Positions 20,691-64,000 of a stretch of DNA of 64,000 nt are shown here, piece by piece; the first letter of the stretch is position 1; each line of letters begins with the position of its first letter. The stretch spans positions 2,426,967-2,490,966 of the forward strand of contig OY760074.1 in assembly GCA_963663035.1 (NCBI GenBank), written 5' to 3'. Under the pieces are notes generated by a model that was given only the letters and a program-made list of their open reading frames with translations, did no database searches and was not told the DNA's origin. The position numbers and the translations under genes are program-made. The stretch is from Acidobacteriota bacterium (GTDB lineage Bacteria; Acidobacteriota; UBA6911; RPQK01; JADFOI01).

Positions 20691-20745
20691 CACCTGACAA
20701 CTGACAGGTGAAACGCTGACCGCTGACCGCTGACCGCTTCAACAG
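20680..20745. repeat. Heptamer repeat array: ACTGACA-type x4 then CGCTGAC x3. It overlaps the last codons and stop of the M24 peptidase gene.
   Basis: cactgacaactgacacctgacaactgacaggtgaaacgctgaccgctgaccgctgaccgc. Confidence 0.75.
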
Positions 20746-42884: not shown

Positions 42885-42890
42885 GATGCC

Positions 42891-44045
42891 ATGCATTTGT
42901 GTTATATGGGTAGGTTCGAAAGTGTTCATCTCAAGAGGTGGATCAAGCACTTTATCGAGCAAGGACATCAGGTCTCTTTGCTTTCTTTCTCAGGTGCATC
43001 ACTTCAGATGGAGGGCTTGAAAGTACATTCCCTCCTGGCGAACTGTTCTGGAGACTCTCCACCACCCACGAGCACGCCCACTCTTCTCTTTGGAGCGCAA
43101 GAGTGGGCTCACCGCCTCCTTCCCCTGGGCCTCCTAACGGCCAGAATGAGTCTTAAGTGGCTGCGCCATGGAATCAAGAGAAAGCTGGAGGAGATTCAGC
43201 CCGACATTTTACATGGGCACTTTCTGATGGAGTATGGTTTCTACGCTGCCACTACGGGATTCTCACCGTTAGTTGTCTCTGCATGGGGTTCGGACCTTCT
43301 GATTCATCCTCAGAGGTCCTTGATCAACAGGTTGTTGATCAACCACACGCTCAAAAGAAGTTCTTTAGTCTACGTTATGGCTCCTTTCATGGCCAGAAAG
43401 ATTGAAGAGATGGGGATCCATAGAGGGAAAATCGTTTCGGCCAATTTTGGGGTAGATGAAGCTTTACTCGATGTACAGGCTCAATCAAGGAATGGGAGAC
43501 CGATACTGGTATGCACCAGGATGCTGGACCACGTCTATAATCACGCCACGCTGATTAAAGCTTTAGCCGTGGTACGCAAAGCCCATTCGGAGGTTTTGCT
43601 TAGATTAGCGGGAGACGGTCCCTTACGGAAGCCTCTGGAAGCCTTGGTGAATGAGTTGAGTTTGCAGACAAATGTTGAGTTTGCAGGCTTTCTTTCAGGA
43701 AGTAAATTAATAGGGGCTCTGAGCACTGCGGACCTCTATCTCTCCACCTCTCTGTCCGATGGAACCTCGGTGTCACTACTGGAAGCCATGGCGGTCGGAC
43801 TTTTTCCGATTGTATCGAACATTGAGGGAAACCGGGACTGGATCGCTGACGGCGCCAACGGATTCCTTGTTGACCCTCACGACCCAGATGCGCTGGCCGC
43901 AAGAATCACCCTGGCTTTGAGTAAGGTCGACTGGAGACGAGAGGTGTGTCAGCAAAATAAGGAGATTGTCAAACAGAGAGCTCTCCGGAAAAGCCAGATG
44001 GAGATCATGGAACAGGCCTACCGCGAGCTATTATCGGAGCAATAG
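42891..44045 (+). CDS. GT4 glycosyltransferase (tandem paralogue 1b)
   Basis: MHLCYMGRFESVHLKRWIKHF...EAMAVGLFPIVSNIEGNRDWIADGANGFLV. Confidence 0.8.
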   Translation: MHLCYMGRFESVHLKRWIKHFIEQGHQVSLLSFSGASLQMEGLKVHSLLANCSGDSPPPTSTPTLLFGAQEWAHRLLPLGLLTARMSLKWLRHGIKRKLEEIQPDILHGHFLMEYGFYAATTGFSPLVVSAWGSDLLIHPQRSLINRLLINHTLKRSSLVYVMAPFMARKIEEMGIHRGKIVSANFGVDEALLDVQAQSRNGRPILVCTRMLDHVYNHATLIKALAVVRKAHSEVLLRLAGDGPLRKPLEALVNELSLQTNVEFAGFLSGSKLIGALSTADLYLSTSLSDGTSVSLLEAMAVGLFPIVSNIEGNRDWIADGANGFLVDPHDPDALAARITLALSKVDWRREVCQQNKEIVKQRALRKSQMEIMEQAYRELLSEQ

Positions 44046-44125: not shown

Positions 44126-45298
44126 ATGAAGATACTCTACGTCCTCTATCATGAGTATGAGCGAATGCCCATACATGCTGTTGAAGTGATCGAGGAGATG
44201 AACCGCCAAGGGCACCAGGTGGTGGTTGTGACTGCCATTTCACGCCAATTTCTGCGAGGACTCGCCTGGCCCCCCACCATTCAAGTCCATCGGGTCCCGA
44301 TCGTGAATCTTAAGGGTCTTCGAATGATCTCTTTCTGTCTGAGTTCCTTGCTGCTTCTGCCTCGCTGGTGCCTGAAAGAATGCCCGAATATTGTTTATGA
44401 TCGCTTTTCACTCACCTCTCTCGTGACAGTCTGGATGACACGCCTCTTAGGTATTCCCCTGGTTTTGGAGATCAATGGAATCGTGAGCGATGAGTTAGCC
44501 TTGGGTCGGAGTGCGCGTTGGCGTCGTCAACTCTTTAAGCTGGTTGAGGGTTGGGTGTTTCGAGGTGGTGACCATCTCATCACCGTGACCGAAGGTATTC
44601 GTAAGTGGGTCAGCTCTGCTCATTCGGTGCCGCTTGAAAACATAGAGACCATCCTCAATGGCACCAATCCTGGCAGGTTTAAGCCCGTTGATAAGGGTCT
44701 GGCTCGACAGGAACTTGGGCTGGATCCTGAGCGGCCTATCGTCGGCTATCTAGGAAGCCTGTTCCCCTGGTGCGGTCTGGAAGTTCTCATTGAAGCCTCG
44801 CTTATCATTTTGGAAAGTATTCCTGATGGACTGTTTCTGATCGGAGGTGGTCAGGCAGAAATGAAAGTGGCATTGGAGGGAAAAGTGAAGCACCTGGGTG
44901 CGGAACAGCACTTTGTCTTTCAGGGTGAAGTTCCCTGGGATCAGGCCGCTCTGTTTATCAGTGCCTTCGATGTTGCAGTGGCTCCAGCCCAACTCTCAGA
45001 GCGCTCAGGAATCTCACCTCAGAAGGTTTATGCATACCTGGCATGCCAACGCCCTGTGGTGGGAAGTGATATCGAGGGACTGGGTGACATGCTGACACAG
45101 GAGAGGGTTGGATTCTCCTTTCCCTCAGGCGATGCTGAGAGAATGGCCGGAGCCATCATCCAACTGCTTCAGGATCGGGAATTGGCGCAGACGATGGGTG
45201 AGCGGGGAAGACGGTTAGTGTTGGATCGTTTCACCTGGGAACGAGTGGTCCAGAAGACAGTACGGATTTTCAAGGACATCTTGGAATCACGGTGTTGA
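44126..45298 (+). CDS. GT4 glycosyltransferase (tandem paralogue 2a)
   Basis: MKILYVLYHEYERMPIHAVEVIEEMNRQGHQVVVV... Confidence 0.8.
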   Translation: MKILYVLYHEYERMPIHAVEVIEEMNRQGHQVVVVTAISRQFLRGLAWPPTIQVHRVPIVNLKGLRMISFCLSSLLLLPRWCLKECPNIVYDRFSLTSLVTVWMTRLLGIPLVLEINGIVSDELALGRSARWRRQLFKLVEGWVFRGGDHLITVTEGIRKWVSSAHSVPLENIETILNGTNPGRFKPVDKGLARQELGLDPERPIVGYLGSLFPWCGLEVLIEASLIILESIPDGLFLIGGGQAEMKVALEGKVKHLGAEQHFVFQGEVPWDQAALFISAFDVAVAPAQLSERSGISPQKVYAYLACQRPVVGSDIEGLGDMLTQERVGFSFPSGDAERMAGAIIQLLQDRELAQTMGERGRRLVLDRFTWERVVQKTVRIFKDILESRC

Positions 45299-45334
45299 AA
45301 CGACTGAGATGAGAATGAGACAGGGCAAACTGAG

Positions 45335-46513
45335 ATGAAGATCTTCTACGTCTTCTATCATGAGTATGAGCGAATGCCCATACATGCTGTTGAGGTGATC
45401 GAGGAGATGAACCGGCAAGGGCAGCAGGTGGTTGTTGTGACTGCCATTTCACGCCAATATCTGCAAGGACTTGCCTGGCCCAAGAGCATTCAAGTTCATC
45501 AGGTTCCGATACTTCATCTCAGGGGTCTTCGAATGATCTCCTTCTTTTTGAGTTCGTTTCTATTGATGCCTTACTGGTGCCTGAAGGCATCGCCCGATAT
45601 TGTGTATGAACGCTTCTCACTCACTTCTCTAGCGACTCTGTGGATTACACGCCTTTTAGGTATTGCTCTGGTCGTGGAGGTAAATGGAATCGTCACCGAT
45701 GAGTTAGCCTTGAGTCAGACTGCCGGTTGGCGTCTTCACCTTCAGGAGCTGGTTGAGGGTTGGGTGTTTCGAGGGAGTGACCATCTCATCACCGTGACCG
45801 AGGGTATACGTCAGTGGGCCGGATCCGATCATTCGGTGCCGCTTGAGAAAATAGAAACAATCTTCAATGGCACCAATCCTCGCAAATTTAAACCCTTTGA
45901 GAAAGGTCTTGCTCGACAAGAATTTGGGCTGGACCCGGAGCGGCCTATCGTCGGCTATCTGGGAAGCCTGTACCCCTGGTGTGGTCTGGAACATCTGATT
46001 GATGCTTCGCCTATGATTCTTGAAGAAATTCCAGATGCACTCTTCCTGATCGGAGGTGGTCAAACGGAGATGAAATGGGAATTTGAGAGAAGGGCGAAGC
46101 ACCTGGGTGTGGAACAGCACTTTGTCTTTCAGGGTGAAGTTCCCTGGGATAAGGCCGCGCTCTTTATCAGTACCTTCGATGTTGCAGTGGCCCCCGCCCA
46201 ATTCACAAAGCGCACAGGAATATCACCTCTGAAGTTCTATGCCTACCTAGCATGCGAACGCCCCGTGGTCGGAACTGACTTGCAGGGTTTGGGCAACATC
46301 CTGGAGGAGAGAAATGTTGGAAAGTCATTTCCCGTGGGTGAAAAGGAAGAACTGGCGGAGGCTGTGATTCTGCTGCTCCAAGATAGAGAAATGGCGACGA
46401 GCATGGGGAAAAGAGGTAGAGAGTTTGTCCTGAAATCTCATACTTGGGAGCGAGTGGTTGAGAAGACCATCGAGTTACTCAATAGGTGTCTAAACTCGAA
46501 GCGAGGCACTTAG
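45335..46513 (+). CDS. GT4 glycosyltransferase (tandem paralogue 2b)
   Basis: MKIFYVFYHEYERMPIHAVEVIEEMNRQGQQVVVV... Confidence 0.8.
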   Translation: MKIFYVFYHEYERMPIHAVEVIEEMNRQGQQVVVVTAISRQYLQGLAWPKSIQVHQVPILHLRGLRMISFFLSSFLLMPYWCLKASPDIVYERFSLTSLATLWITRLLGIALVVEVNGIVTDELALSQTAGWRLHLQELVEGWVFRGSDHLITVTEGIRQWAGSDHSVPLEKIETIFNGTNPRKFKPFEKGLARQEFGLDPERPIVGYLGSLYPWCGLEHLIDASPMILEEIPDALFLIGGGQTEMKWEFERRAKHLGVEQHFVFQGEVPWDKAALFISTFDVAVAPAQFTKRTGISPLKFYAYLACERPVVGTDLQGLGNILEERNVGKSFPVGEKEELAEAVILLLQDREMATSMGKRGREFVLKSHTWERVVEKTIELLNRCLNSKRGT

Positions 46514-48756: not shown

Positions 48757-50679
48757 ATGTGTGGAATTTGCGGGATTGTTCTAGATCAGGAAAGCAAAGA
48801 GGCCGATCTCAAGAGCCTACAGTCCATGAGAGAGGCACTGTTTCACCGCGGACCGGATGATCATGGATCATATCTGAAAGGTAATGTGGGCTTGGCCATG
48901 CAGCGGCTCAGCATTATCGACTTGGCAGGAGGACACCAACCGATCCATAACGAGGACCAGACTGTTTGGGTGGTCTTCAACGGTGAAATCTACAATTTCC
49001 AGGAATTGCGGAAAGAATTGATCGGTAAAGGGCATCACTTCTCCACCAGGAGTGATACGGAAGTCATTGTCCATCTCTACGAAGAATCCGGCGTCGACTG
49101 TGTGAAGAGACTTCGGGGGATGTTCGCTTTTGCGCTGTGGGACACGAGAAGGAAGACTCTGCTTCTTGCCAGGGACCGTTTGGGCATCAAACCCCTTTAC
49201 TATTACCACCGGAACGGATGTTTTCTCTTTGCCTCGGAGATAAAGGCATTGATTCAACACCCCGCAGTTGAGCGCCAGGTGAGTATGAGGGGACTGGACT
49301 GCTACTTCACTTATGGCTACATCCCAGCCCCTGAAACCATCTTCAAAGATATCTACAAACTGAGTCCGGCTGCAACTCTCTCGCTGCAACAGGGTCATGT
49401 CTCGAAGCAAAAATATTGGGATCTGGACTATACAGACACACTGCAGGGCGATCCTGAGGAGTTGAGCCAGGAGCTCCTGGAGCGCTTGCGAGATTCGGTC
49501 CGGCGTCATTTGGTAAGCGACGTGTCTGTGGGGGCCTTCTTGAGCGGAGGGGTAGACTCAAGTGCCATGGTGGCCCTGATGCGCGAGGAAGCGGACCGGC
49601 CCATTAAAACCTTTTCCTTGGGATACCGAGGAAAGGGCGACGAGCTGGGTTATGCCAGATTGGTCTCCAAGCACCTCGAGACCGAGCACCACGAATTTAT
49701 AGTCAGTCCGGATATGACGGAGCTGTTGCCCGAATTGGTTTGGCATCAGGATGAGCCCTTGTTTGATAACTCCATACTCCCTACTTTTCTGGTGTCGAAA
49801 CTGGCCAGAGAGCATGTCAAGGTTGCCTTGTCCGGCGACGGAGGTGATGAGCTGTTTGGAGGATATGAATGGACTCGCCGATATCAATTCATACGATACT
49901 ACAATCAGCTACCTGGAGGTATCAGGACGATCTTACAGAAGCTGTTGTTGAGAGACGGACACGAACCTGCATACCGTTCCGATTTCACGAGTAAGCTGAA
50001 ACGTTTCATCTCTGACACAACCCTATCCTTGGAGGAAGGCTTTGCCCGCAGGACGACCAATTCAGGGCAATTCAGACAGCAGCTTTATTCCGAAGAAACA
50101 AAAAAGGCACTGGATCGTTATGACGCTTTGACTCTTCAGAGCGAGTGCTTCACTCGAGCATCCGTGCAGGATGAGAGAGACAAGATGCTCTATGTGGATA
50201 GCATGCTTTATTTGCCCGATGATTGCCTTTTCAAAGTAGACCGCATGAGCATGGCCAACTCTCTCGAGGTAAGAGTTCCCTTTCTCGACCATGAGTTCGT
50301 AGAGTTCACCAGTCGTCTTCCCTTTTCTGTGAAGGTTTCCGGCCTCACCACGAAGCGAATTCTGAAGAAGGCCCTTGCCAGTCGACTTCCTTCAACAGTC
50401 TTCTCTCAGAGGAAGCAGGGTTTCACCATTCCCATTGCTGATTGGCTGAGGGGAGAGCTGGGTGATCTGGTGGAGAAGATCATTCTACAGGACAGGGCTC
50501 AGGAACGAGGTTTCTTCAATCCAGATTGCTTGCGATGGATGCTCGAAAGCCATCGAAGTCACCGCTACAATTTGAGCTATCAAATCTGGGCGGTATTCAT
50601 CTTCGAGATCTGGGCAAGACTGTATCTGGACCGGACAGATCTGACCAAACCCGAAGCAACTCTGAAAGACCTACTTTAG
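48757..50679 (+). CDS. Asparagine synthase (glutamine-hydrolysing) family amidotransferase (AsnB/WbpS-like)
   Basis: MCGICGIV (N-terminal nucleophile Cys2) and the SGGVDSS PP-loop. Confidence 0.9.
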   Translation: MCGICGIVLDQESKEADLKSLQSMREALFHRGPDDHGSYLKGNVGLAMQRLSIIDLAGGHQPIHNEDQTVWVVFNGEIYNFQELRKELIGKGHHFSTRSDTEVIVHLYEESGVDCVKRLRGMFAFALWDTRRKTLLLARDRLGIKPLYYYHRNGCFLFASEIKALIQHPAVERQVSMRGLDCYFTYGYIPAPETIFKDIYKLSPAATLSLQQGHVSKQKYWDLDYTDTLQGDPEELSQELLERLRDSVRRHLVSDVSVGAFLSGGVDSSAMVALMREEADRPIKTFSLGYRGKGDELGYARLVSKHLETEHHEFIVSPDMTELLPELVWHQDEPLFDNSILPTFLVSKLAREHVKVALSGDGGDELFGGYEWTRRYQFIRYYNQLPGGIRTILQKLLLRDGHEPAYRSDFTSKLKRFISDTTLSLEEGFARRTTNSGQFRQQLYSEETKKALDRYDALTLQSECFTRASVQDERDKMLYVDSMLYLPDDCLFKVDRMSMANSLEVRVPFLDHEFVEFTSRLPFSVKVSGLTTKRILKKALASRLPSTVFSQRKQGFTIPIADWLRGELGDLVEKIILQDRAQERGFFNPDCLRWMLESHRSHRYNLSYQIWAVFIFEIWARLYLDRTDLTKPEATLKDLL

Positions 50680-53192: not shown

Positions 53193-54803
53193 TTATGATT
53201 CGCGCTGAGCGGGTCTACGCATTTGGGGCTGTTCATAAATCGCGTCGGTTCCGCGATTGACCAGAATCACCTGTTCGGTGTCGACATCAGACGGTGGTTC
53301 TGTCTCGGTACGGGTCCAGAGTGTCGGAAAGGCCTTTCCCAAGTTTTTGGTCTTGATGACTTTCTGGAGACTTCCCCAGAGCCCATACCAGCGCAACTGG
53401 TCTCGGATATAAATCCCCACTCGCAGCAGGTAGACGATCCATTTGAGCACCCGCGGGCGCCCCTGGGTGAGAGCGAGGCAGGCCTGGAAAAGCCACCTGG
53501 ACAGTCGATCACCCCGGCCAGCGAATCCGCTCATGAGAATCTGAAAGAGAACGATCTGTTCTTTTCTGAGGGTCGGCAACTCCAGTACCGTGCTTTCGTA
53601 ATAGTTCTCCGGCATCTCATCGTCTGTCAGGTATCCTTTCTCCTTGCAGTAATCATGGAGTACCGTGCCTCTCAAGGGATAGAAGATAGTGACCTGAAAG
53701 CTGTCGGGCTGTAACTCGGCCAGCAGCTCAAAGTTCTTGCGGAGGACATCCGCAGTTTCACCTGGCAACCCGACCATGTTAAAGGCATGAGTGTGCAAAC
53801 CATATTTCTTTGCCAGTCGAAAAGCTTCGATGACCTTTCCCTGCGGTGTTTTCCGATCCAGAGTCTCTTTCCTGAAGTCTTCATCTCCGCTTTCCACTCC
53901 TATGGCAACAGCCGCCGCACCAGCCTCACTGATCAACTTCATCTTCTCCTCGGTGATGAGCTCGGGACGCTCCATGAAGGTAAAAGGGATGTTGACCTGA
54001 GAACTGAAGAGATCTCTGATCCTTTCGAGCCTCGGTCTTTGGGTGAGGAAAATCTCATCTACGAAGTAGATGTAATCCAGGCCACCGAGTAATTTCTTTA
54101 ATGCGTGCACCTCCTCGACCATCCGTTCGGGGGATTTCTCACGGCGCCAGGATTTACCTCCGTACATGTTCATCAAGTGGGGACTGCTGCAGTAGGTGCA
54201 GGTAAAAATACATCCTCTACTTCCCTCGAAGGTACCGACGATGTTTGCTCCACTGGCTACACCGCCTTTGAGGTAATGGGAGGTAAAGTGCGCCTCGTCA
54301 AAGATTTGCCAGTCGGGAAAAGGCAACTCTTCGAGATCAATCAAGGGCCGGAGACTATTCTTGTGGACAACACCATTCTCGCGTACCCACACATTTTGAA
54401 CATCCTTCAGGCTCTCTCCCTTTTCCAGCTTCTCAACCAGTTCCAACAGGGCATACTCCCCCTCTCCCTGAACAACGATGTCGAAGGTCTCCATCATCTC
54501 CTGGGCGGCAACTGTGACGTGATGCCCCCCAGCGATAACCGTGATCCCCTCAGGAATCAGTTCCTTGAGTAAACGAACCATTCTCACTTCGTTGCTGCGA
54601 ATGGAAAAGGCAACAAGCTGGGGCTGAAAGTCCTCAAGTTTTTGAACGAAACTTGTTCGTTCATGGCCCGGTTCAACCAGTGTAGTGTCATACAGATCGC
54701 AGTCATGGCCATGAAGTTTCATGACTGCCGAAAGCGAACAGATACCCAGTTGAGGGGTGCGAGCACCCCGCTGGATATTTGGATACACAAACAGAATTTT
54801 CAT
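53193..54803 (-). CDS. B12-binding domain radical SAM protein
   Basis: N-terminal B12-binding-like domain (MKILFVYPN...) plus a CxxxCxxC radical SAM motif (GSRGCIFTCTYCSS). Confidence 0.8.
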   Translation of the reverse strand: MKILFVYPNIQRGARTPQLGICSLSAVMKLHGHDCDLYDTTLVEPGHERTSFVQKLEDFQPQLVAFSIRSNEVRMVRLLKELIPEGITVIAGGHHVTVAAQEMMETFDIVVQGEGEYALLELVEKLEKGESLKDVQNVWVRENGVVHKNSLRPLIDLEELPFPDWQIFDEAHFTSHYLKGGVASGANIVGTFEGSRGCIFTCTYCSSPHLMNMYGGKSWRREKSPERMVEEVHALKKLLGGLDYIYFVDEIFLTQRPRLERIRDLFSSQVNIPFTFMERPELITEEKMKLISEAGAAAVAIGVESGDEDFRKETLDRKTPQGKVIEAFRLAKKYGLHTHAFNMVGLPGETADVLRKNFELLAELQPDSFQVTIFYPLRGTVLHDYCKEKGYLTDDEMPENYYESTVLELPTLRKEQIVLFQILMSGFAGRGDRLSRWLFQACLALTQGRPRVLKWIVYLLRVGIYIRDQLRWYGLWGSLQKVIKTKNLGKAFPTLWTRTETEPPSDVDTEQVILVNRGTDAIYEQPQMRRPAQRES

Positions 54804-54819
54804 CACTTGCGGCTCTCCC

Positions 54820-55111: not shown

Positions 55112-56215
55112 ATGAGAATTCTAGTCATTTGTGATGTTCTGTCTCCGCAGACGGTGGGAGGGGCGGGAAGGTTCGCTCGAGAAGTCACCACGGCTTTCGG
55201 AGAACGGGGTAACGCGGTGGAATTTCTCACTCGACAAGTTTCTGCGAATCGTTCGAGAAACGATGCCAACGATATCAAAACAACCTATTACCCATTTGTG
55301 GGAAAGGCCTTTCCCACTCGTTTTCGAAAGATCTTCAACCAGACCATAAGAGACTTTAAACCTGACCTTGTGCATGTTCATCAACCCCTGCCAGCATTCC
55401 TATTGATTCCATCTTCTTTCTCCCGACCGATCGTCTACACCTTTCACTCCTCCTGGGCGGAGGAGTTTAAGATCAAGTCTTCTCGCTGGCCGCGAGTCTT
55501 CAGAAAGATAGTGAGTCCTTTGCTGGCGGAAGTGGAGAAACGCGCACTCCACCGTGCAACTGCAATAACGGTGCTGAGCGAGTTCTCACAGCGCAAACTG
55601 AAGCGACTTTATAACCGGGAAGGGGTCATAATCCCGGGCGGAGTCAACTCCGAGCGATTTCAACCGATCGAGAAAGTGCAACCCAACCAGACTCTTCGCC
55701 TGGTTACCCTTCGCAACCTGGTCCCACGGATGGGATTACCTCAACTGATCCGCGCCATGAAACTCTTGCCTTCCCACATCGAACTAACGATCGGGGGACA
55801 GGGTCCACTGCGGAATGAGCTAATGGGGCTCATCGGGTCCCTGGGTCTGAGCAAACGAGTGCAATTGGCTGGACACGTGCCGGATGATGATCTTTCTCAT
55901 TTCTATTCGTCGGCCAACTGGTTTGTTCTGCCCACTGTGGCACTGGAAGGATTCGGTCTGGTTATCTTGGAAAGCCTTTCCTGTGGCACTCCGGTGTTGG
56001 GAACAAGGATCGGGGCGATTCCGGAGCTGTTGGAAAAATTCGATCCACAGTGGATCATCAAAGAACCCACTCCGGAGGCCATCGCTGCCACAATACTATC
56101 TGTCAGCGAAAACTCCCCTCCCTCGCCCACCCAGTTGCATGATCGGGTCAGCGCGGAATTCGACTGGAGAAACATTGCCGCGCGCTACCTCGACCTGTTC
56201 GCGAGTCTCATCTAG
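55112..56215 (+). CDS. GT4 glycosyltransferase
   Basis: MRILVICDVLSPQTVGGAGRFAREV...LEGFGLVILESLSCGTPVLGTRIGAIPELL. Confidence 0.8.
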   Translation: MRILVICDVLSPQTVGGAGRFAREVTTAFGERGNAVEFLTRQVSANRSRNDANDIKTTYYPFVGKAFPTRFRKIFNQTIRDFKPDLVHVHQPLPAFLLIPSSFSRPIVYTFHSSWAEEFKIKSSRWPRVFRKIVSPLLAEVEKRALHRATAITVLSEFSQRKLKRLYNREGVIIPGGVNSERFQPIEKVQPNQTLRLVTLRNLVPRMGLPQLIRAMKLLPSHIELTIGGQGPLRNELMGLIGSLGLSKRVQLAGHVPDDDLSHFYSSANWFVLPTVALEGFGLVILESLSCGTPVLGTRIGAIPELLEKFDPQWIIKEPTPEAIAATILSVSENSPPSPTQLHDRVSAEFDWRNIAARYLDLFASLI

Positions 56216-56300
56216 GGAAATGTGGGGACAAAGGGGAAATGTGGGGACAAAGGGGAAATGTGGGGACAAAGGGGAAATGGGGACAAAGGGGAAATGTGGG
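56216..56300. repeat. 19-bp direct tandem repeat GGAAATGTGGGGACAAAGG: three perfect copies, one 17-bp copy and one partial copy
   Basis: Read directly. There are no interspersed spacers, so this is not a CRISPR array. Confidence 0.85.
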
Positions 56301-56364
56301 GACAGACTACCCGTTCACCTTATTTCGGAAATGAGGTGAACGGGTAGTCTGTCCCCACATTTCC
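56290..56364. terminator. Perfect 30-bp stem hairpin with a 15-nt loop; bidirectional terminator candidate between convergent genes
   Basis: ggaaatgtggggacagactacccgttcacc / ggtgaacgggtagtctgtccccacatttcc. Confidence 0.6.
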
Positions 56365-56382: not shown

Positions 56383-56613
56383 CTACCTTCTGTCCGCGTC
56401 CTGAGGCTCGTAGAATTCAGGCTGGTGATTGTAAAGATAGGTCCCAAACCACATGAGAAAAAAGGCAATCACGACAATCACCAATAAGACAATCACCTTC
56501 GGCCAGACCCCTCCGCGTCGTGGAGAACCTAGCCTAAAAAGGCCGGAGATCTTTCCCCTGTCTCTCCTTCTCCTGCCTCTACCTCTCCTGTCTCCCTTTC
56601 TCCTCTCTGTCAT
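56383..56613 (-). CDS. Doubtful small ORF (76 aa): an Arg-rich N-terminus plus one TM helix
   Basis: ATGA overlap with the stop of asnB-2. The N-terminus RRGRGRRRRD is encoded by the CT-rich heptamer repeat family, so the ORF may be spurious. Confidence 0.25.
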   Translation of the reverse strand: MTERRKGDRRGRGRRRRDRGKISGLFRLGSPRRGGVWPKVIVLLVIVVIAFFLMWFGTYLYNHQPEFYEPQDADRR

Positions 56614-58496
56614 CCTGTGAGCCTCTTCTCCATCTTTTCATACCACAGCTGAAAGACAAGAAGACCCCACAACTGGTTGGTCTTGCGAACTTTTCCGCTG
56701 AGGTGCTCCTGAAACAGAAAGTTGACCTGTTGTGAATCGAAGAAACCCTGACGATCCAGTCTCTGGGGTGCAAAGTAATGCTCGAACATGGATCGCAGCT
56801 CCTGTTTCATCCAGGTGCCGATGGGAATCATAAAACCCTGCTTCTTCCGGCTGAGGATCTTCGGAGGCAAGTCGTTTTTCAATATTTTTTTCAACAGCTT
56901 CTTCAGGGTAAAGGAGCCTACCTTGCGGTGCCATGGGTGACGAAGCAAGTCCTCTACTAAAAGATGGTCGCAAAAAGGTACTCGAATCTCCAAGGAGTGA
57001 GTCATTCCCATCTGGTCAGCCATATAGAGCAGATCATTCACCAGGTAGGACACCAGATCCACATAAAAGACCTGGTCCACAGGGTTCCACTCCCGAACCG
57101 GCTGAAGTAACTCGTTGAAGTAAGCCTTATCTCGATCCAGTGACGTCAACTTGCTCAGGAACTCCCTGGTGTACAGTGCTCGTCGGTCCTCTGGTGAATT
57201 GAAGCTGACCCACCTGCGATAGCGGTCAAGAGGCTGATCCTCAGGATGTGACAGGAAGCGGCGTGCCCATCCTCCTATGTTTCTACTGGATTCCCCCTCG
57301 GGGATGGCCCTGGACATCCGCGACAAGAGCTTCCGCAAGGCAAGAGGCAACTCCCGGTAACGGGTGTCCCACAAAACGCCCAGGTATCGAGGATAGCCGC
57401 CAAATAACTCGTCGCCGCCGATGCCAGACAATGCCACTTTGACTTGGCCGGCCGTTTGCTGGCTGACGAGATAAGTGGGAATGGCTGAAGAATCGCCAAA
57501 GGGCTCATCCATTGCCTGAACAACATCCAAGATCGTCTGCTGGATGTCGGGCTGGACAACGAACTCGCAGTGCTCAGTCTTGTAATAGTCAGCAACCAGA
57601 CGGCAATACTCCAGTTCATCAAAAGAGGAAAATTGCTCTCCGTAGCCAATAGAAAAGGTCTTCACCGGCTCAGAGGAGCTTTCACTGACCAAGGCAACAA
57701 TGGCACTGGAGTCTATGCCTCCACTCAAAAACACCCCCAGAGGCACGTCACTCATCAGCCGGATCGCCATGGACTCGCGAAGACGTGAATCAATCTGTTT
57801 CTCAAAATCCTCTGCACTTTCCTCTGATAACCGATCAACTGGAGGCTCCCAGTACTGAACAAGTTCATACTCACCTTTTTCATATTCCAGGTAAGTACCA
57901 GGTGGAAGTTTGTAGATGTTTTTGTAGATGGTCCAGGGACAGGGGATGTAGAGAAAACTCTGGTAGAGATCCAGAGCTTCAGGACTCAACTCCAGGGAAA
58001 GTCGCTCCTCTTGAAGCACTGCCTTCAGCTCTGAAGAAAAAATCACTCTTGTTCCCAGAGGAGTGAAATAAAGTGGTTTGACTCCCAAATGATCCCGCGC
58101 CAAAAAGCCTTTCTGCTCTTTTTGATTCCAGATGGCGAAGGCAAAGTCGCCCCTCAAAAATTTGGGGGTCTCCGGCCCCTTTTCTTCAAAGAGATGCAGA
58201 ATAACTTCCGTATCCGTATGCGTCGAAAAGCGATGACCTCGCCCTTCAAGTCCCTCTCTCAGTGTCTGGTAATTATAGATCTCCCCATTGAAGACAATCC
58301 AAAGATCACCCGATTCATTGCTGATCGGCTGATGACCCGTGATCAGGTCAATGATGGTGAGCCGGCGCATACCCAGTGTTGCACCCGGGTTGCTGTAGAC
58401 TCCGTGGTCGTCGGGCCCCCGATGAGTGAGGCACTCATTCATGCGCTCCACCAGAGCAGGGTTTTGTTCCCCAAAGACACCATTAATTCCACACAT
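56610..58496 (-). CDS. Asparagine synthase (glutamine-hydrolysing) family amidotransferase, second copy
   Basis: MCGINGVFG and the SGGIDSS PP-loop. Confidence 0.9.
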   Translation of the reverse strand: MCGINGVFGEQNPALVERMNECLTHRGPDDHGVYSNPGATLGMRRLTIIDLITGHQPISNESGDLWIVFNGEIYNYQTLREGLEGRGHRFSTHTDTEVILHLFEEKGPETPKFLRGDFAFAIWNQKEQKGFLARDHLGVKPLYFTPLGTRVIFSSELKAVLQEERLSLELSPEALDLYQSFLYIPCPWTIYKNIYKLPPGTYLEYEKGEYELVQYWEPPVDRLSEESAEDFEKQIDSRLRESMAIRLMSDVPLGVFLSGGIDSSAIVALVSESSSEPVKTFSIGYGEQFSSFDELEYCRLVADYYKTEHCEFVVQPDIQQTILDVVQAMDEPFGDSSAIPTYLVSQQTAGQVKVALSGIGGDELFGGYPRYLGVLWDTRYRELPLALRKLLSRMSRAIPEGESSRNIGGWARRFLSHPEDQPLDRYRRWVSFNSPEDRRALYTREFLSKLTSLDRDKAYFNELLQPVREWNPVDQVFYVDLVSYLVNDLLYMADQMGMTHSLEIRVPFCDHLLVEDLLRHPWHRKVGSFTLKKLLKKILKNDLPPKILSRKKQGFMIPIGTWMKQELRSMFEHYFAPQRLDRQGFFDSQQVNFLFQEHLSGKVRKTNQLWGLLVFQLWYEKMEKRLTG

Positions 58497-58512: not shown

Positions 58513-59936
58513 TCAGACAGACTGGTCCAGGGGCTCAGTTTCCTCTTCGGAGAGCTCTTCAGCAGCTACAAAGCGCAAGCTAAAGACAAGGCCGGCTACC
58601 AGCCAGAAGGGCTGCATAATGCGGACTATAATGAAGGTGTTGGACCCGATGGCATGGAAGAGGAGGCACACCAGAGCTCCTAGAAAACCGACCGCCAGAC
58701 CTCTGGAGAAGGGTTCATCAGAAAAATAGCGGAAACGATCCATCCCCATTTGAAAAAGTCTAAAACAGAGGAACAACAGAGCAAACAGACCCAATAGCCC
58801 GCTTTCGAGCAACGTTCTAAAGTACTGGGCATCGATAAACTGCCACCCCGTCACCCCATAACCGAGAAGAGGTTCCTCGTAGAAATCCTGCAGAGCCGCT
58901 TGGAAACTTTGCAGTCGAGCAGAGGTTGAGGTATCCAATCGCTGACCAAAAACGAGGACCTGGCCGGCCATGGGCTCCTGGGCTCCTGGGTCCAGGTATA
59001 GGTGACCCGGTCGCGAATAACTTGGGGGAACACATTGGGGAAAAGCAGAAGACAAAAGGTCAGACCCAGCAGACTGTAGCTGACCAGGCGCTGCTTACTC
59101 AAGAGCAGCACCACAGCCAGCCCTGGAATAAAGCCGAGATAGGAAGCTCGTGAAAGCGTGAACAAGAAAGGCACAAAGAGATAAAAAGCAATGGCGAAGT
59201 AACCGATCCGGCTCCTGTATTCCGGTAGATTCAGTGACAGAGCAATACAAATGAGGATCAACAAGGCCAGATAGCCTCCAAAGGTATTGGGTTCTGGGCT
59301 GTCACCTTCAAAGGGAGCTGTTATCCGACCTCCGCCGGGGACCTGAGCGAGACCGATAGCGCCTACAATAAGAGCTGTCACGATGACCGCCACCCAATAT
59401 CGTCGCAGCTGCTTTTGGTCTTCGATGTTGTTGATGACCAGAAAAAAGAGCACAAAGTACTGGATGTACTTCAGCACAAAAAGGGACCCGGCCATGAGTT
59501 GGACCCGGCCGGCCGCTATCCCTATCAGTGTAGAGAGAAAACACGCGAAAGCGTAAAGAAGCATGGCACCATTGAGCGGGGTTTTCTTGAAAATTCCCAA
59601 TTCTTTGTGCAGGGCACTTTTCACCATCCAGGAAACTGCAATGATCACCAGTAGAAAATCATCGAAACGAAAGGTGACACCCCTTCCCAAGGTCCCTCCT
59701 GTAGTGGCGGACTGACCGACACCGAACTCGGGAGAGAGCAGCATGGAGCAGATCAGTAGATAGATGGCGATCTTCGCTCTGAAAAAGACAAGGACGGTGA
59801 CCGCGATCCCTACACCCACCAGAAGGGCCACACTCATCTCCAGTCGGGAGATAAGGAGGGCGACTACAAACAGAACCCCTCCCATGAGAAGCATCAGGAA
59901 AAGCTCAAAGGTGTGCTCGCCAGGGATCCGTGCCAT
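58513..59936 (-). pseudogene. Wzy / O-antigen ligase family polymerase, frameshifted by an 8-bp tandem duplication
   Basis: The N-terminal ORF 58851..59936 carries the TLSRASYLGF motif. The C-terminal ORF 58513..59055 (GYGVTGWQFIDAQYF) is in another frame. Deleting one copy of GGCTCCTG (58973-58988) gives a continuous ...TYTWTQEPMAGQVLVFGQRLD... product. Confidence 0.7.
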
Positions 59937-59943
59937 CTGGTGA

Positions 59944-62349
59944 CTACTCCTCGTCCGTGAGCTTCATCACGTCTTCCATTTCCTCATCGCCAGAGGAGGG
60001 GTGGGAGGGCTTCTTGGGGGATGCTTTAAAACCTCTGAAGATCTTTCGAAGACTCTGACGGCCGAGAAAGCTCGAAAATCGCTCTTTCAAGCCGCCCACG
60101 AGTCCCAAATAGGATTCGGGGGCAAGAACCTCTTCGTACTTATATTTATAGCCATAGTATGGGTAATCGCGGGTATAGTAGATTTCCGCCTCGATGTCGT
60201 TCATCAAAAGACCCACCACGTTTCCACCAACAGATTGCAGCCGACTTTTGGTTCGGTTGACGACTTCGCGTCCAACTCGGCCAATTTGATAGGTAATCAG
60301 TGTCGCCTCGATGCCGGGGGTCAACTGAGAGGCTTCGGCCACCGGAAGCACAGGTGCAATATCCACAATGATGATGTCATAAAGATCACGCATTTCTGAA
60401 AGGATTCCGCTCATCTTGTCCAGGTTCAGGAGTTCAGCGGGGCTATCGACCCTTCTCCCGGCAGTGAGTAGAAAAAGATACTCAAGTCCCGGGTTCAAGT
60501 GGGCATTCTTGAGTCCAAATTTCCCTAAGATCAAATCATCGATTGATTTGGTGGCACTTTCCCACTCAGCCACTCCCAGAAGAACATCCGATAATCCAGG
60601 GGTCTTAGACAATCCAAAGACTCTATGGACCTGGGGACGCCGCAGGTCGGCATCTATCAAGAGTGTCTTCCAACCGGCCTGGCCAAAGATGACCGCTAAG
60701 TTACAGGCGGTGTTCGTCTTACCCTCCTGCAAGACAGAGGACGTGACCAGGACGGTCTTCCAGTCATTTTTCTTTAACATGACCTCGAGCTGGGCACGCA
60801 TTGAACGGAAAGCCTCGGAGACGGGCTCTTGAGGGGCAAAATGAGTACAGAGAGTGGCCATTCGGTCTATTTCCCCGGAGGTGACATCGCTCCCCATCTC
60901 TCCCACCAGCACATTCCCTCTCACCAGGTCTGCATCCAGATGGGGGATCACCCCCAAAACAGGAAGCTCAAGATATCCCTCAACATCATCTATAGTCCCA
61001 ATCGAGGTATCCAGGGACTCCAGCAGGACAGAAAAAATGCCGCCTAAAATCAGTCCGATCAGTACGCCCGCCAGAGATTTCAATAATCTCGAGGGCTGAG
61101 CCAAGGGGATAGCCAAGCTGGCCTGCTCGACAATAGTGACCTCCTTGATTTCACTGGCCTTCTGAATCTCCGCGTCCTGCAACCGCCTCTGGAAAAGATT
61201 GAGGCCATCGGTCTGGAGTACGACGCGCCGTTCCAAAGCTCCAAGTTGGCGGGTGATCTCAGGGACGGTTTCCAGTAGATCCCAACGGATCATTAAAGTG
61301 CGGCGATTTTCAATCAACTCATCCTGAACGGCCTGGTAGCCTTGAAGCAAACTGGAGATGATTTCCCGACCGCTTTCTTCCAGGTCTTCTGTCTCGAGGA
61401 TTTTCTCCTGGACCTCCCTCGATTCCGCAGTGCTGTAGCGCAACAGTCGACGCAATTCGGTTTTGAGCCGGTTGATCTCAACAATCAGCTGCAAAACTTG
61501 CTCTTCCAGTCGATAAAGCATCTGATCTTCTGCTTCGCCCAGTACAGGAGAGAAGGACCAGTACTCCTCGACGCTGGGAATCAGCTCCAACTGTCGCATC
61601 CCCTTTTCCAGATTGGCCATCGTTCTTCCAAGACTCTCGATCCGCTGTTGGATGTCTCCACCTGCGGCGGCATCCAGAGCTAAGACCGTCCGATAGTCTC
61701 GCTTGAACTCCTCGAGTCCTTTTTCCGCCTGGCCCAGCTCTTCCTCAGACTCTTGGATTCGGGCTTGGATGAACAGCACAGCCTCGCGAACCTCTCTATT
61801 TCTCTCTGAGATGTTGTAATTGACAAATTCCTCAGCCGTATAGTTGGCGATATCAACTGCCAGTTCCTGTGAGGAGCCAAAAGCCAGGATGCCCACAGCT
61901 TCGCTGTCTCCCTTTTTTTCAGCCTCGATTTCGATGTCGCTAACCAACCTCACCAGGTTCGGATCATCCCGGACCTTTTGCTCGAGAGCCTCGTAGTCCA
62001 CCTCCTCCTCATCTACATCACTACCTAAAGCATTCATCTCGCTGTATTGATCGTACTTCTGAGCAAGACGCAGCGCCACACGTGCTTTAATCTTCTGACT
62101 TGTGATGATCTCTGACTGGGTGGCGATGTTGTCACCTTGATACCAATATAAGGCCTCGACCAGCAGTGCCTGCATATTGGCCGCCACACGAGTGATTTTC
62201 ACCAACGATTCAGCTTCGAATCGGGGAGGCGGGCTTTCAGTGAAGAACCAGGTCAAAGCCCCGACCAGGCTGGGTGCCAGCAGGAGGATCCACCTCCGGC
62301 GACGTGCGACACGAAAGATGTCTCGAAGGTTGATTTCAAACTCTGCCAT
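59944..62349 (-). CDS. wzc: Polysaccharide co-polymerase fused to a BY-family tyrosine autokinase (Wzc-like)
   Basis: An N-terminal TM helix, a periplasmic coiled-coil region and a second TM helix, then a P-loop (SSVLQEGKTNTACNLA) and a C-terminal Tyr cluster (YYTRDYPYYGYKYKYEE). Confidence 0.85.
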   Translation of the reverse strand: MAEFEINLRDIFRVARRRRWILLLAPSLVGALTWFFTESPPPRFEAESLVKITRVAANMQALLVEALYWYQGDNIATQSEIITSQKIKARVALRLAQKYDQYSEMNALGSDVDEEEVDYEALEQKVRDDPNLVRLVSDIEIEAEKKGDSEAVGILAFGSSQELAVDIANYTAEEFVNYNISERNREVREAVLFIQARIQESEEELGQAEKGLEEFKRDYRTVLALDAAAGGDIQQRIESLGRTMANLEKGMRQLELIPSVEEYWSFSPVLGEAEDQMLYRLEEQVLQLIVEINRLKTELRRLLRYSTAESREVQEKILETEDLEESGREIISSLLQGYQAVQDELIENRRTLMIRWDLLETVPEITRQLGALERRVVLQTDGLNLFQRRLQDAEIQKASEIKEVTIVEQASLAIPLAQPSRLLKSLAGVLIGLILGGIFSVLLESLDTSIGTIDDVEGYLELPVLGVIPHLDADLVRGNVLVGEMGSDVTSGEIDRMATLCTHFAPQEPVSEAFRSMRAQLEVMLKKNDWKTVLVTSSVLQEGKTNTACNLAVIFGQAGWKTLLIDADLRRPQVHRVFGLSKTPGLSDVLLGVAEWESATKSIDDLILGKFGLKNAHLNPGLEYLFLLTAGRRVDSPAELLNLDKMSGILSEMRDLYDIIIVDIAPVLPVAEASQLTPGIEATLITYQIGRVGREVVNRTKSRLQSVGGNVVGLLMNDIEAEIYYTRDYPYYGYKYKYEEVLAPESYLGLVGGLKERFSSFLGRQSLRKIFRGFKASPKKPSHPSSGDEEMEDVMKLTDEE

Positions 62350-62593
62350 TGTTACCTGGAGCTTACCTCCGTGTGAAAAGAAATACCGAGTCTCTCAGAA
62401 GTCCCAGCAGCGGAGTAATGACCCCTACCACATCTCCTAATGTGGCAAGATTACGTCTGGGGACAAATATAACATCATGATTTTGCAAGGTGACGTTCTG
62501 AGAGAAATCGGCCTCCTCCACCAGACTTGACCTTGCCCCCTAAAACGAGTCCAGTTTGAATGTTAGGATTTCCGGTTTAGGAAGGAGGCAAGG

Positions 62594-62872
62594 ATGGCAG
62601 GGAAGCGGTTTAGGGCAGAACAGATCATCATGAAGCTGCGTGAGGCAGAGGTGGGTCTGGCCCAAGGACAGAGGGTGGGACAGGTGTCGAAGCAGATGGG
62701 GGTGAGCGAGCAGACCTACTACCGGTGGCGCAAAGAGTACGGAGGGCTCCGGTTGGACCAGGCCAAGAGGTTGAAGGTGTTGGAGAAGGAGAATACCCGG
62801 TTGAAGAAGCTGGTGGCGGATCTGTCTTTGGACAAGCAGATCCTGAAGGAAGTGTCCTCGGGAAACTTCTAG
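62594..62872 (+). CDS. IS3 family transposase OrfA (helix-turn-helix)
   Basis: [51 protein letters not shown]. Confidence 0.8.
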
Positions 62873-63765
62873 GCCCGGCGAACAGGAGACGAGCGGTGAT
62901 GTGGGTACGAGAGCGATTAGGAGCAGAGCGAGTCTCCGAACGTCGGGCCTGCCAAGTGCTGGGACAGGTTCGATCGACCCAGCGAAGGGAAAGGCAAATT
63001 CCCGATGATGAGGCCCGATTGGTGGCCCGGATGGTGGAGTTGGCTACGCAATACGGGCGTTATGGCTACCGGCGGGTCACGGCGATACTTCATGGGGAAG
63101 GGTGGAAGGTGAATCCTAAGCGGGTGGAGAGGCTGTGGAGACAAGAAGGGCTGAAAGTCCCGTCCAGACAGCCGAAACGAAGGAGGCTGTGGCTTAATGA
63201 CGGTTCCTGTGTTCGGTTACGAGCGGCTCGCAAGAACCACGTCTGGAGCTATGATTTCGTGCATGAACGGACCCATGATGGGCGAGCCTTTCGGCTATTG
63301 ACGATCCTGGATGAGTACACCAGAGAGTGCCTCGCCATTGATGTGAAACGGCAGATGAATCACCAAGACGTGTTGGACCGGCTGGCGGAGTTATTCGTTG
63401 ATCGGGGAGTGCCTGAGTTTATCCGGTCCGATAACGGATCGGAGTTTACGGCACAGGCGGTCCGGGACTGGCTGCAGGCTGTTGGGGTAAGGACCTTGTA
63501 CATCGAGCCGGGCAGCCCCTGGGAGAATGGGTACATTGAGAGTTTCAACGGGAAACTACGGGATGAGCTGCTGAACATGGAGATCTTCGACACGCTGGGG
63601 GAAGCCAAGGTGTTGGTAGAACGCTGGCGGAGGGATTACAATCAGATCCGGCCTCACAGCGCCTTGGCCTATCGGCCGCCGGCGCCAGAGGCCAAACTAC
63701 CTAGGTCGCAGGCACTGGATCCAATCCCTTGGAGTGGACTTCAAATGGTCCCGGGTCTAGCATAG
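62860..63765 (+). CDS. IS3 family transposase OrfB (DDE integrase core), expressed by a programmed -1 frameshift at GGGAAAC (62860-62866)
   Basis: ...[16 protein letters not shown]...DNGSEFTA...[20 protein letters not shown] matches the DD(35)E catalytic core. The ORF track gives the orfB frame as 62725..63765. Confidence 0.75.
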
Positions 63766-64000
63766 AGGGTGGACTCGTTCGTGGGGGCAGGTCAGCTGTG
63801 CCTCGACGCACACCGAAGGCCACAAACAAGATATGAGAATGAAGAAAGAAAGCGTCCTGGCTAAACTATCTCGTACCATAGCTCTACCTCCAAGGTGGAG
63901 TCGGTGTTTGAATAATAGGTAACGGAAATTCCAACTGTGCACACCACCCCGTTTCGAGAAATCATACCTCAGAATACCGACATCTAGGGGGGGGATGCAG

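What the first reader, a model, noticed from the sequence alone, without database searches (positions are those of the whole stretch)
58513..59936. Wzy / O-antigen-ligase-like polymerase gene split by an 8-bp tandem duplication
GGCTCCTG occurs twice in tandem at 58973-58988. Removing one copy fuses the two overlapping ORFs into one roughly 470-aa Wzy_C-type protein with a clean junction (...TWTQEPMAGQVLVFGQ...). Three explanations are possible. The polymerase may be a recent pseudogene, giving a rough or non-polymerised phenotype. It may be a reversible slipped-strand on/off switch. Or it may be an assembly or sequencing artefact. The IS3 element next to wzc suggests a locus in flux.
Basis: seen in the sequence. 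Interest (0 to 1): 0.75.

Follow-up and report, generated by a model that had tools for sequence, protein, structure and literature searches.

The report
Recently broken polysaccharide polymerase gene
A sugar-chain polymerase/ligase-type gene in an uncultured Acidobacteriota genome has been knocked out by a real, inherited 8-base duplication, and the export gene next to it has been destroyed by a mobile element, so this is an ordinary case of a surface-polysaccharide gene cluster starting to decay.

Summary
GGCTCCTG occurs twice in tandem at 58973-58988, inside a minus-strand gene (58513-59936). Removing one copy gives a 471-aa Wzy_C protein that aligns without gaps to many 471-aa homologues. 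The closest intact relatives (96.6% and 92% nt identity) carry exactly one copy, and the 8 bp is the only indel in the gene.

It is not an artefact of one assembly. Three other assemblies of the same species (at least 99.9% identical, but different haplotypes) carry the same duplication.

It does not behave as an on/off switch. No single-copy allele of this strain is on record. Three of the four haplotypes carry a second frameshift (+C at gene nt 64) in the same gene.

The rest of the operon is also damaged. The upstream wza export gene has lost 744 bp and is occupied by an IS3 element in all three assemblies that cover it. One strain also has a nonsense mutation in a neighbouring epimerase gene.

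Substitution counts show no relaxed selection yet, so the break is recent. The likely origin is replication slippage between two CCCA tetramers 8 bp apart.

Verdict: a genuine, recent pseudogene in a decaying wza-wzc-wzy operon. Low novelty.

The parts
58513..59936 (-). Wzy_C-family (Wzy polymerase / WaaL-ligase-like) gene, now a pseudogene. It would be 471 aa if one 8-mer were removed.
   Evidence: Pfam PF04932 6.3e-10, above the gathering score. Aligns without gaps to 471-aa homologues. The model of a 92%-identical homologue best matches WaaL 7TPG.
58973..58988 (.). The 8-bp tandem duplication (GGCTCCTG x2 on the + strand; CCCAGGAG duplicated in gene orientation). The exact period-8 run is 58971-58990.
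   Evidence: Single copy in L001, L005 and L006, and the only indel in the gene.
58851..59936 (-). 5' reading frame: 321 native residues followed by 40 out-of-frame residues and a premature stop.
   Evidence: The same product is on record as P0121.
58513..58972 (-). 3' part in the native frame (M322 to the stop, 150 aa). It encodes the periplasmic loop and the last three long helices, with many invariant residues. It is no longer joined to the 5' part.
59873..59874 (-). Site where sister haplotypes L002, L087 and L004 carry an extra C (GGTTCTG -> GGTTCCTG, gene nt 64). This is a second frameshift; it is absent from the window and from the outgroup L005.
59944..62349 (-). wzc-like polysaccharide co-polymerase / tyrosine autokinase, intact (801 aa). 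Its stop codon lies 7 nt upstream of the wzy start.
   Evidence: Branch substitution counts equal those of the intact relative.
62363..62527 (-). 3' remnant of wza (Poly_export / OPX), about the last 55 codons.
   Evidence: tblastn and blastn against the intact wza of L005.
62528..63795 (+). IS3-family element of 1268 bp with orfA and orfB. Terminal inverted repeats are TGACCT(T)GCCCCC... / ...GGGGGCAGGTCA. It replaces 744 bp of wza.
   Evidence: Same position in L002 and L087.
63796..63879 (-). 5' remnant of wza (first 28 codons).
56610..58496 (-). AsnB-like glutamine amidotransferase, the next gene downstream in the same operon, intact. It lies 355 nt beyond the premature stop.

Best explanation
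This is a genuine, inherited loss-of-function mutation. In an ancestor of this Acidobacteriota lineage, replication slippage between two CCCA tetramers 8 bp apart (ACCCAGGAGCCCATG) duplicated the unit CCCAGGAG inside the Wzy_C-family gene of a wza-wzc-wzy-asnB operon.

The +8 frameshift ends translation after 321 native and 40 foreign residues. That removes the conserved periplasmic loop and the last three helices, which carry a large share of the family's invariant residues. The enzyme should therefore be inactive.

The same lineage has also lost most of the outer-membrane export gene wza to an IS3 element. Sister strains have since added a second frameshift in wzy and a nonsense mutation in a nearby sugar-nucleotide epimerase. 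The whole export and polymerisation module of this polysaccharide locus is therefore being pseudogenised.

Shown: the duplication, its inheritance, the additional lesions and the lack of any intact allele on record. Inferred: the slippage mechanism, the loss of enzyme activity and the phenotype (loss or shortening of one surface or exopolysaccharide).
For: (1) Removing one 8-mer restores a 471-aa protein that aligns without gaps to homologues. The junction is TWTQEPMAGQ, against TWTQAPMAGQ in the 92%-identical P0001.

(2) At DNA level the 8 bp is the only indel compared with L001 (92% nt) and L005/L006 (96.6% nt). These carry the single-copy, pre-duplication sequence CCCAGG(A/C)GCCCA with its CCCA...CCCA microhomology.

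(3) The same duplication is in L002/L003 (ERZ28763718, 2.59-Mb contig), L087 (ERZ25074053, circular 3.44 Mb, 23x) and L004 (Logan ERR14231557). These differ from the window by about 12 SNPs and several indels over 14.1 kb.

(4) L002, L087 and L004 share a second frameshift (+C at gene nt 64). It is absent from the window and from the outgroup L005, and it is the only 1-bp indel in the 14.1-kb three-way alignment of window, L002 and L087.

(5) Only residues 1-28 and about 276-330 of wza remain, flanking an IS3 element; 744 bp are missing. L001 and L005 have an intact wza.

(6) L087 has Q173* in the adjacent epimerase/dehydratase gene.

(7) In the 53-sequence alignment, 24 of 55 invariant columns lie after residue 321: D332, R338, P353, G356, G358, T360, G361, F364, D366, R371, E375, G377, G380, L387, G414, H425, G428, N430, T431, F432, R436, P440, W442 and others. 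In the AF2 model the break sits at the start of the non-membrane segment 317-367.

(8) Branch-specific substitutions are 15 synonymous to 4 non-synonymous on the window branch and 13 to 4 on the intact L005 branch. The gene was under purifying selection until recently.

(9) The exact repaired allele is absent from a collection of about 15 billion proteins, whereas three frameshifted versions are present.
Against: No raw reads were available, so minority single-copy revertants within the populations cannot be excluded.

The assemblies appear to be long-read metagenome assemblies and may come from related samples of one project. Their independence rests on sequence differences, not on metadata.

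Loss of enzymatic function is inferred from conservation and fold, not measured.

Wzc, the flippase and the glycosyltransferases of the locus are still intact, so the locus is not globally decayed.

The +C falling in wzy has roughly a 10% chance expectation (1.4 of 14.1 kb), so on its own it is weak evidence for relaxed constraint.
Confidence: 0.85

Rival explanations
1. Reversible on/off switch. The duplication is one state of a slipped-strand or duplication-excision toggle that turns polysaccharide polymerisation off and on. The model is the spontaneous reversible duplications in pneumococcal capsule genes.
For: Any perfect tandem duplication can in principle be excised precisely. Reversible duplications in cap3A, cap8E and tts are a documented capsule phase-variation mechanism (PMC4243769 citing Waite et al. 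2001 and 2003). The gene still looks selectively maintained apart from the frameshift.
Against: There are only two copies of an 8-mer, and no repeat tract exists in any relative; all have one copy. All four haplotypes of the strain are in the OFF state, and no single-copy allele of this strain is on record. Three haplotypes carry a second frameshift, which makes excision of the 8-mer insufficient to restore the gene. The wza export gene of the same operon is irreversibly deleted.
Confidence: 0.05
2. Assembly or sequencing artefact. The true genome has one copy, and the extra 8 bp was introduced by consensus or polishing error.
For: The source contigs look like long-read metagenome assemblies, which can contain indel errors. 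The low-coverage relative L005 (5x) has several split genes that may be errors.
Against: The identical 8-bp insertion appears in four separately assembled contigs, including a k-mer-based Logan contig and a 23x circular contig. Across 14.1 kb the three long assemblies differ by only one 1-bp indel, so their indel accuracy is high. To my knowledge, an 8-bp non-homopolymer duplication is not a typical long-read error mode.
Confidence: 0.03
3. Still functional despite the split. Either the two pieces are made separately, with the 3' piece starting at ATG 58972-58970 behind the duplicated AGGAG, and reassemble in the membrane. Or a low-level -1 ribosomal slip on the GTTTTTG run downstream restores the frame.
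For: The duplication places a second AGGAG 11 nt upstream of the in-frame ATG of M322; the first is only 3 nt away. A T5 run lies in the 40-codon overlap, where a -1 shift would restore the native frame (sequence inspection). There is no excess of non-synonymous change yet.
Against: M322 is not conserved in the family; T, R and Q occur at that position. No slippery heptamer of the X XXY YYZ type and no stimulatory structure was identified. Sister strains have a further frameshift at codon 22, which argues against selection to keep the N-terminal piece. Without Wza the pathway lacks its export channel. No natural two-gene version of this family was seen among 120 homologues.
Confidence: 0.04

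Closest known systems
Wzy polymerases / WaaL O-antigen ligases (Pfam Wzy_C PF04932; CAZy clan GT-C1, e.g. WaaL PDB 7TPG)
   Same: The repaired protein passes the Wzy_C threshold. The model of the 92%-identical homologue is a polytopic helical membrane protein whose best PDB match is WaaL 7TPG (TM 0.59/0.67), followed by the SEDS polymerase FtsW. It has a long extracytoplasmic loop with invariant Arg and acidic residues, as described for WaaL (R191, R265, H313) and related polymerases (PMC10920833). The gene sits directly after wzc and wza, in a locus with a Wzx-type flippase.
   Different: Sequence identity to 7TPG is only about 15%, and a profile search of PDB sequences finds nothing. Sequence alone cannot say whether it polymerises repeat units (Wzy) or ligates a glycan to an acceptor (WaaL/PglL-like). 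No NCBIfam equivalog matches. Here the gene is broken.
Reversible capsule on/off by spontaneous tandem duplications in Streptococcus pneumoniae cap3A, cap8E and tts (Waite et al. 2001, 2003)
   Same: A short perfect tandem duplication inside a polysaccharide-synthesis ORF abolishes the product. Such duplications can be excised precisely (PMC4243769).
   Different: In pneumococcus the ON and OFF forms coexist and interconvert within a strain. Here only the OFF form is seen in four haplotypes. A second frameshift and an irreversible wza deletion accompany it, and no reversion evidence exists.
Decay of surface-polysaccharide loci by frameshifts and IS elements (rough or semi-rough variants through wzy or other O-antigen gene mutations)
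   Same: There is a combination of an IS insertion/deletion, small frameshifts and a nonsense mutation in one polysaccharide gene cluster, nested across closely related strains. wzy frameshifts and pseudogenes are reported repeatedly in O-antigen and capsule literature (titles). The classic examples, E. coli K-12 rfb and Yersinia pestis O-antigen genes, are from my own knowledge.
   Different: The host is an uncultured environmental Acidobacteriota lineage rather than a pathogen or laboratory strain. The phenotype and the selective driver are unknown.
Classical slipped-strand phase-variable genes (simple-sequence contingency loci)
   Same: A short tandem repeat inside an ORF whose copy number sets the reading frame.
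   Different: Contingency loci have long, conserved tracts (homopolymers or many copies of 2-7-nt units) whose copy number varies among close strains. Here there are two copies of an 8-mer, found in this lineage only, with no copy-number variation among four haplotypes.

Membership tests
Wzy_C superfamily (Wzy polymerase / WaaL ligase, PF04932) | Significant match to the Wzy_C profile above the curated threshold | tested here: met
   Repaired protein: 39.5 bits against a cut-off of 31.7, E 6.3e-10, residues 249-382. All listed homologues carry a precomputed PF04932 hit.
Wzy_C superfamily (Wzy polymerase / WaaL ligase, PF04932) | Polytopic membrane fold of the WaaL/SEDS (GT-C_B / GT-C1) type with a long extracytoplasmic loop | tested here: met
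   AF2 model of P0001 (92% identical): pLDDT 80.9, pTM 0.82, about 14 helices, non-membrane segment 317-367. Best PDB fold matches are WaaL 7TPG (E 3.4e-7) and then FtsW.
Wzy_C superfamily (Wzy polymerase / WaaL ligase, PF04932) | Conserved Arg residues and an acceptor-activating His/Asp/Glu in the periplasmic loops | tested here: inconclusive
   Invariant R204, R310, R338, D332, D366, E375 and H425 exist in the family alignment. I did not obtain a residue-level superposition on 7TPG R191/R265/H313 (PMC10920833).
Wzy-dependent polymerase specifically (as opposed to WaaL-type ligase) | Genomic association with Wzx flippase, Wzc/PCP co-polymerase and Wza/OPX exporter | tested here: met
   wza-wzc-[this gene] are adjacent and co-oriented in the intact relatives L001 and L005. 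A Polysacc_synt flippase is at window 40356-41693.
Wzy-dependent polymerase specifically (as opposed to WaaL-type ligase) | Demonstrated polymerisation of Und-PP-linked repeat units | not testable with these tools
   Needs biochemistry or genetics.
Phase-variable contingency locus / reversible duplication switch | Copy-number variation of the repeat among very closely related genomes or within a population | tested here: not met
   All four haplotypes at 99.9% identity or more have two copies. The exact single-copy allele is absent from the protein collection. Within-sample read heterogeneity is not testable here.
Phase-variable contingency locus / reversible duplication switch | Restoring the repeat number restores an intact gene | tested here: inconclusive
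   True for the window allele. False for L002, L087 and L004, which carry an extra +C frameshift.
Pseudogene (unitary, recent) | Disabling lesion relative to intact orthologues, inherited across strains, with further lesions accumulating | tested here: met
   The operon partner wza is deleted.
Pseudogene (unitary, recent) | Relaxed selection (raised dN/dS) on the lineage | tested here: not met
   15 synonymous to 4 non-synonymous on the window branch, against 13 to 4 on the intact branch. This is as expected if the lesion is very recent.

The most novel reading that the evidence does not exclude
The duplication is not a dead end but a functional state. One possibility is a slowly reversible off-switch of the pneumococcal cap3A type, operating in an environmental Acidobacteriota population. 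The other is that the duplication, by placing a second AGGAG 11 nt upstream of the in-frame ATG, created a naturally split two-polypeptide Wzy that still works.
Probability: 0.05. Interest if true: 0.55.

Novelty: new member of a known kind. Interest (0 to 1): 0.15.

Why it matters
The main value is for annotation and interpretation. The two ORFs should be annotated as one wzy-type pseudogene, and the wza fragments beside the IS3 as remnants.

This lineage probably no longer makes or exports the polymer encoded by this module. That bears on inferences about biofilm or exopolysaccharide production from Acidobacteriota MAGs.

The nested series of lesions across four near-identical haplotypes is a small, clean example of stepwise decay of a surface-polysaccharide operon in a wild population:
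- IS3/wza deletion and the 8-bp duplication are shared by every haplotype that covers the site.
- The +C is shared by three haplotypes.
- Q173* and a 54-bp deletion in the IS are found in one haplotype.

It also shows that apparent frameshifts in long-read MAGs can be real. It does not open a new mechanistic question.

Tried and rejected
- A profile search of PDB sequences with the family alignment found nothing. The fold search was needed instead.
- NCBIfam gave no meaningful equivalog for the protein, only a weak IctB-family hit far below its cut-off. No PEP-CTERM-associated ligase model matched.
- A scan of JGI metagenome contigs for the junction with 1 to 4 copies (TATACCTGGACCCAGG N{4,28} CATGGCCGGCCAGGT) returned 0 hits. 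That collection therefore says nothing about copy-number variation.
- The GTDB genome scan did not recover the window's own species. The nearest species representatives are 77-78% identical Acidobacteriota MAGs.
- The look-up of encoding contigs could not locate the window's own record through the 361-aa product.
- I asked whether the 475-aa ORF at 38226-39653, which has no Pfam hit, could be a second polymerase. Its translation is a soluble, non-membrane protein, so no.
- I looked for programmed frameshift signals in the 40-codon overlap. There is only a T5 run and no canonical slippery heptamer, so I rejected this as a designed recoding site.
- dN/dS gave no sign of relaxed selection. I read this as recency rather than as evidence of function.

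Full report
**Observation.** The + strand reads ...CATGGGCTCCTGGGCTCCTGGGTCC... GGCTCCTG lies at 58973-58980 and again at 58981-58988. The exact period-8 run is 20 nt long (58971-58990). It is the only such run in the window, and none appeared in 200 shuffles. TRF reports it as 2.5 copies. The gene is on the minus strand. One ORF runs 59936-58851 (361 aa), and a second, overlapping ORF in another frame runs 59055-58513. Deleting one 8-mer gives a single 471-aa ORF with the junction TYTWTQEP|MAGQVLVFGQ.

**What the gene is.** The repaired protein passes the Pfam Wzy_C threshold (39.5 bits against 31.7), and the match (residues 249-382) spans the junction. A database search returns more than 3000 relatives. 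Of the best 120, 27 are exactly 471 aa and 100 fall between 440 and 476 aa.

The repaired protein aligns without gaps to the 471-aa homologues from 63% to 92% identity. At the junction the nearest named relative, an Acidobacteria MAG protein, reads TWTQAPMAGQ. None of the shorter database entries ends at residues 321-361. They are contig-end fragments or alternative starts.

An AlphaFold model of the 92%-identical homologue was built from a 53-sequence alignment (pLDDT 80.9, pTM 0.82). It is a polytopic helical membrane protein. Its best PDB fold match is the O-antigen ligase WaaL 7TPG (E 3.4e-7, TM 0.59/0.67), followed by the SEDS polymerase FtsW. That is the relationship described for the GT-C1 clan of Wzy polymerases, O-antigen ligases and SEDS proteins (PMC10920833).

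In intact relatives the gene sits in a wza-wzc-[this gene]-asnB arrangement. The window also holds a Wzx-type flippase, an initiating Glycos_transf_4 enzyme, many GT4 glycosyltransferases and sugar-modifying enzymes between about 23 and 62 kb. A Wzy-type polymerase is the most natural reading. Sequence alone does not exclude a ligase-type role.

**Is the duplication real?** At DNA level the window gene differs from L001 (GCA_027294805.1, 92% nt) and from L005/L006 (two ENA assemblies, 96.6% nt, intact 471 aa) by substitutions plus exactly one indel, the 8 bp. Those relatives read GGACCCAGG(A/C)GCCCATGG, a single unit flanked by CCCA on both sides.

Three further assemblies carry the same duplication:
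- L002/L003: ENA ERZ28763718, a 2.59-Mb contig.
- L087: ENA ERZ25074053, contig 'ctg471289_23x_c', 3.44 Mb. The name suggests a circular contig at 23x coverage.
- L004: a Logan contig from run ERR14231557, seen in two samples.

They are not copies of one sequence. Over 14.1 kb the window, L002 and L087 differ by about a dozen SNPs, a 55-bp tandem-repeat length difference, a 54-bp deletion inside the IS in L087, and one single-base indel. An identical 8-bp non-homopolymer insertion arising as an error in four assemblies, one of them k-mer based, is very unlikely. I conclude that the duplication is a real mutation inherited by this species-level lineage. I could not inspect reads.

**Pseudogene or switch?** Five observations point to a pseudogene.

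First, that single-base indel is an extra C at gene nucleotide 64 (GGTTCTG -> GGTTCCTG, window about 59873/4). It is present in L002 and L087, and also in L004, which overlaps only the wzy region. It is absent from the window and from the outgroup L005. It is therefore a derived second frameshift in the already broken gene. This is why gene callers report 326- and 328-aa products starting downstream. In those strains, excision of the 8-mer would not restore the gene.

Second, the operon's outer-membrane export gene is gone. Compared with L005 only codons 1-28 and the last 55 or so codons of wza remain (window 63879-63796 and 62527-62363). They flank a 1268-bp IS3-family element (62528-63795, orfA/orfB, imperfect terminal inverted repeats). 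744 bp of wza are missing. The same structure is in L002 and L087, whereas L001 and L005 have an intact wza.

Third, L087 has a CAA->TAA nonsense mutation (Q173*) in the NAD-dependent epimerase/dehydratase gene just upstream of the operon, outside the window.

Fourth, the exact single-copy allele of this strain is absent from a collection of about 15 billion proteins, whereas three frameshifted versions are present.

Fifth, no relative has a repeat tract here, and two copies of an 8-mer is not the architecture of a contingency locus.

The lesions are nested. The IS3/wza deletion and the 8-bp duplication are in every haplotype that covers them. The +C is in three haplotypes. Q173* and the IS deletion are in one. 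This is the pattern expected of progressive decay.

**How recent?** I used L001 as outgroup. The window branch of wzy has 15 synonymous and 4 conservative non-synonymous changes. The intact L005 branch has 13 and 4. wzc shows 32 and 16 on both branches. There is no sign of relaxed selection, so the gene was functional for nearly all of the time since the split from the L005 lineage. The break is recent.

**Consequence for the protein (inferred).** The 5' ORF keeps 321 native residues and adds 40 unrelated ones. The break falls at the start of the non-membrane segment 317-367 of the model, ahead of the helices 368-401, 406-425 and 435-462.

In the 53-sequence alignment, 24 of the 55 invariant columns lie downstream of residue 321. 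They include D332, R338, the G356/G358/T360/G361 motif, D366, E375, H425 and R436. In WaaL the phosphate-binding arginines and the acceptor-activating histidine sit in the long periplasmic loop, and related polymerases have equivalent Arg and Asp/Glu residues (PMC10920833). Loss of this region should abolish activity. Together with the loss of Wza, the polymerisation and export module is most probably non-functional.

**Mechanism of origin (inferred).** The pre-duplication sequence has CCCA at both ends of the 8-bp unit (CCCAGGAG-CCCA). Misalignment of the nascent strand on this 4-bp direct repeat during replication gives exactly the observed product: a 20-nt period-8 run, that is two 8-nt units plus the 4-nt repeat.

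**Rivals.**
- A reversible duplication switch of the kind documented for pneumococcal cap3A, cap8E and tts (PMC4243769 citing Waite et al. 2001 and 2003) cannot be excluded for the window allele in principle. The points above contradict it. I give it about 5%.
- An artefact gets about 3%.
- A still-functional split or recoded gene gets about 4%. The duplication does place a second AGGAG 11 nt upstream of the in-frame ATG of M322, and a T5 run in the overlap could allow rare -1 slippage. But M322 is not conserved, no canonical slippery site exists, and the sister strains' extra frameshift and the missing Wza argue against retained function.

**Comparison and novelty.** This is a new instance of a well-known kind: a recent frameshift pseudogene of a Wzy_C-family enzyme, in a surface-polysaccharide locus that is also hit by an IS element, in an uncultured Acidobacteriota lineage. 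The closest species representatives in GTDB are 77-78% identical Acidobacteriota MAGs. The finding is sound and useful for annotation, but it is not surprising to a specialist. Interest is low.

Noticed in passing
window 62363-63879: The IS3 element (62528-63795) does not just neighbour wzc. It replaces 744 bp of the wza (Poly_export) gene, leaving only 28 N-terminal and about 55 C-terminal codons. There is no obvious target-site duplication, which suggests an IS-associated deletion.
   Followed up: yes
window 56215-56345: A 19-nt tandem repeat (GGGAAATGTGGGGACAAAG, 4.8 copies) lies directly after the GT4 gene. It is followed by a strong hairpin whose 3' arm is the reverse complement of the repeat unit. 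The window has 55 bp (about 3 units) more than the sister assemblies L002 and L087, so copy number varies between strains.
   Followed up: partly
window 2473-2502, 8700-8785, 9440-9515, 20679-20738: Several different heptanucleotide tandem arrays lie in short intergenic regions: AGGAGAC, AGAATAC, AGGTAGG, GTCAGTG, CTGACAG, GACTCCT, ACTGACA, CGCTGAC, at 3-6 copies each. Period-7 runs are strikingly over-represented: 7 exact runs, against 0-1 for every other period from 4 to 12.
   Followed up: no
window 56553-56608: A CT-rich 15-nt repeat (TTCTCCTGTCTCTCC, about 3.7 copies) lies immediately downstream of the asnB-like gene's stop codon.
   Followed up: no
L087 4938-5897 (outside the window, upstream of the operon): The sister strain L087 has a nonsense mutation (Q173*) in an NAD-dependent epimerase/dehydratase gene of the same polysaccharide region. 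It also has a 54-bp in-frame deletion inside IS3 orfB (equivalent to window 63139-63192).
   Followed up: yes
window 48757-50679, 53193-54806 and 56610-58496: The polysaccharide locus contains two paralogous AsnB-like glutamine amidotransferases. They resemble the XrtA/PEP-CTERM-type amidotransferase but score below its cut-off. It also contains a B12-binding radical-SAM enzyme, which suggests unusual amidation or methylation of the polymer.
   Followed up: no
window 41721-44045 and 44126-46513: Two pairs of adjacent, similar-sized GT4 glycosyltransferase genes with the same domain architecture, possibly tandem paralogues, lie in the locus. Three SAM-methyltransferase genes and one FkbM-type methyltransferase gene lie between 36.4 and 47.4 kb.
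   Followed up: no
L005 13646-14329 and 17482-18998: The closest relative with an intact wzy (5x-coverage ENA contig) shows a truncated GT4 gene and a split PMT_2 gene. Both are intact in the window. These could be low-coverage assembly errors or independent lesions in that lineage.
   Followed up: no
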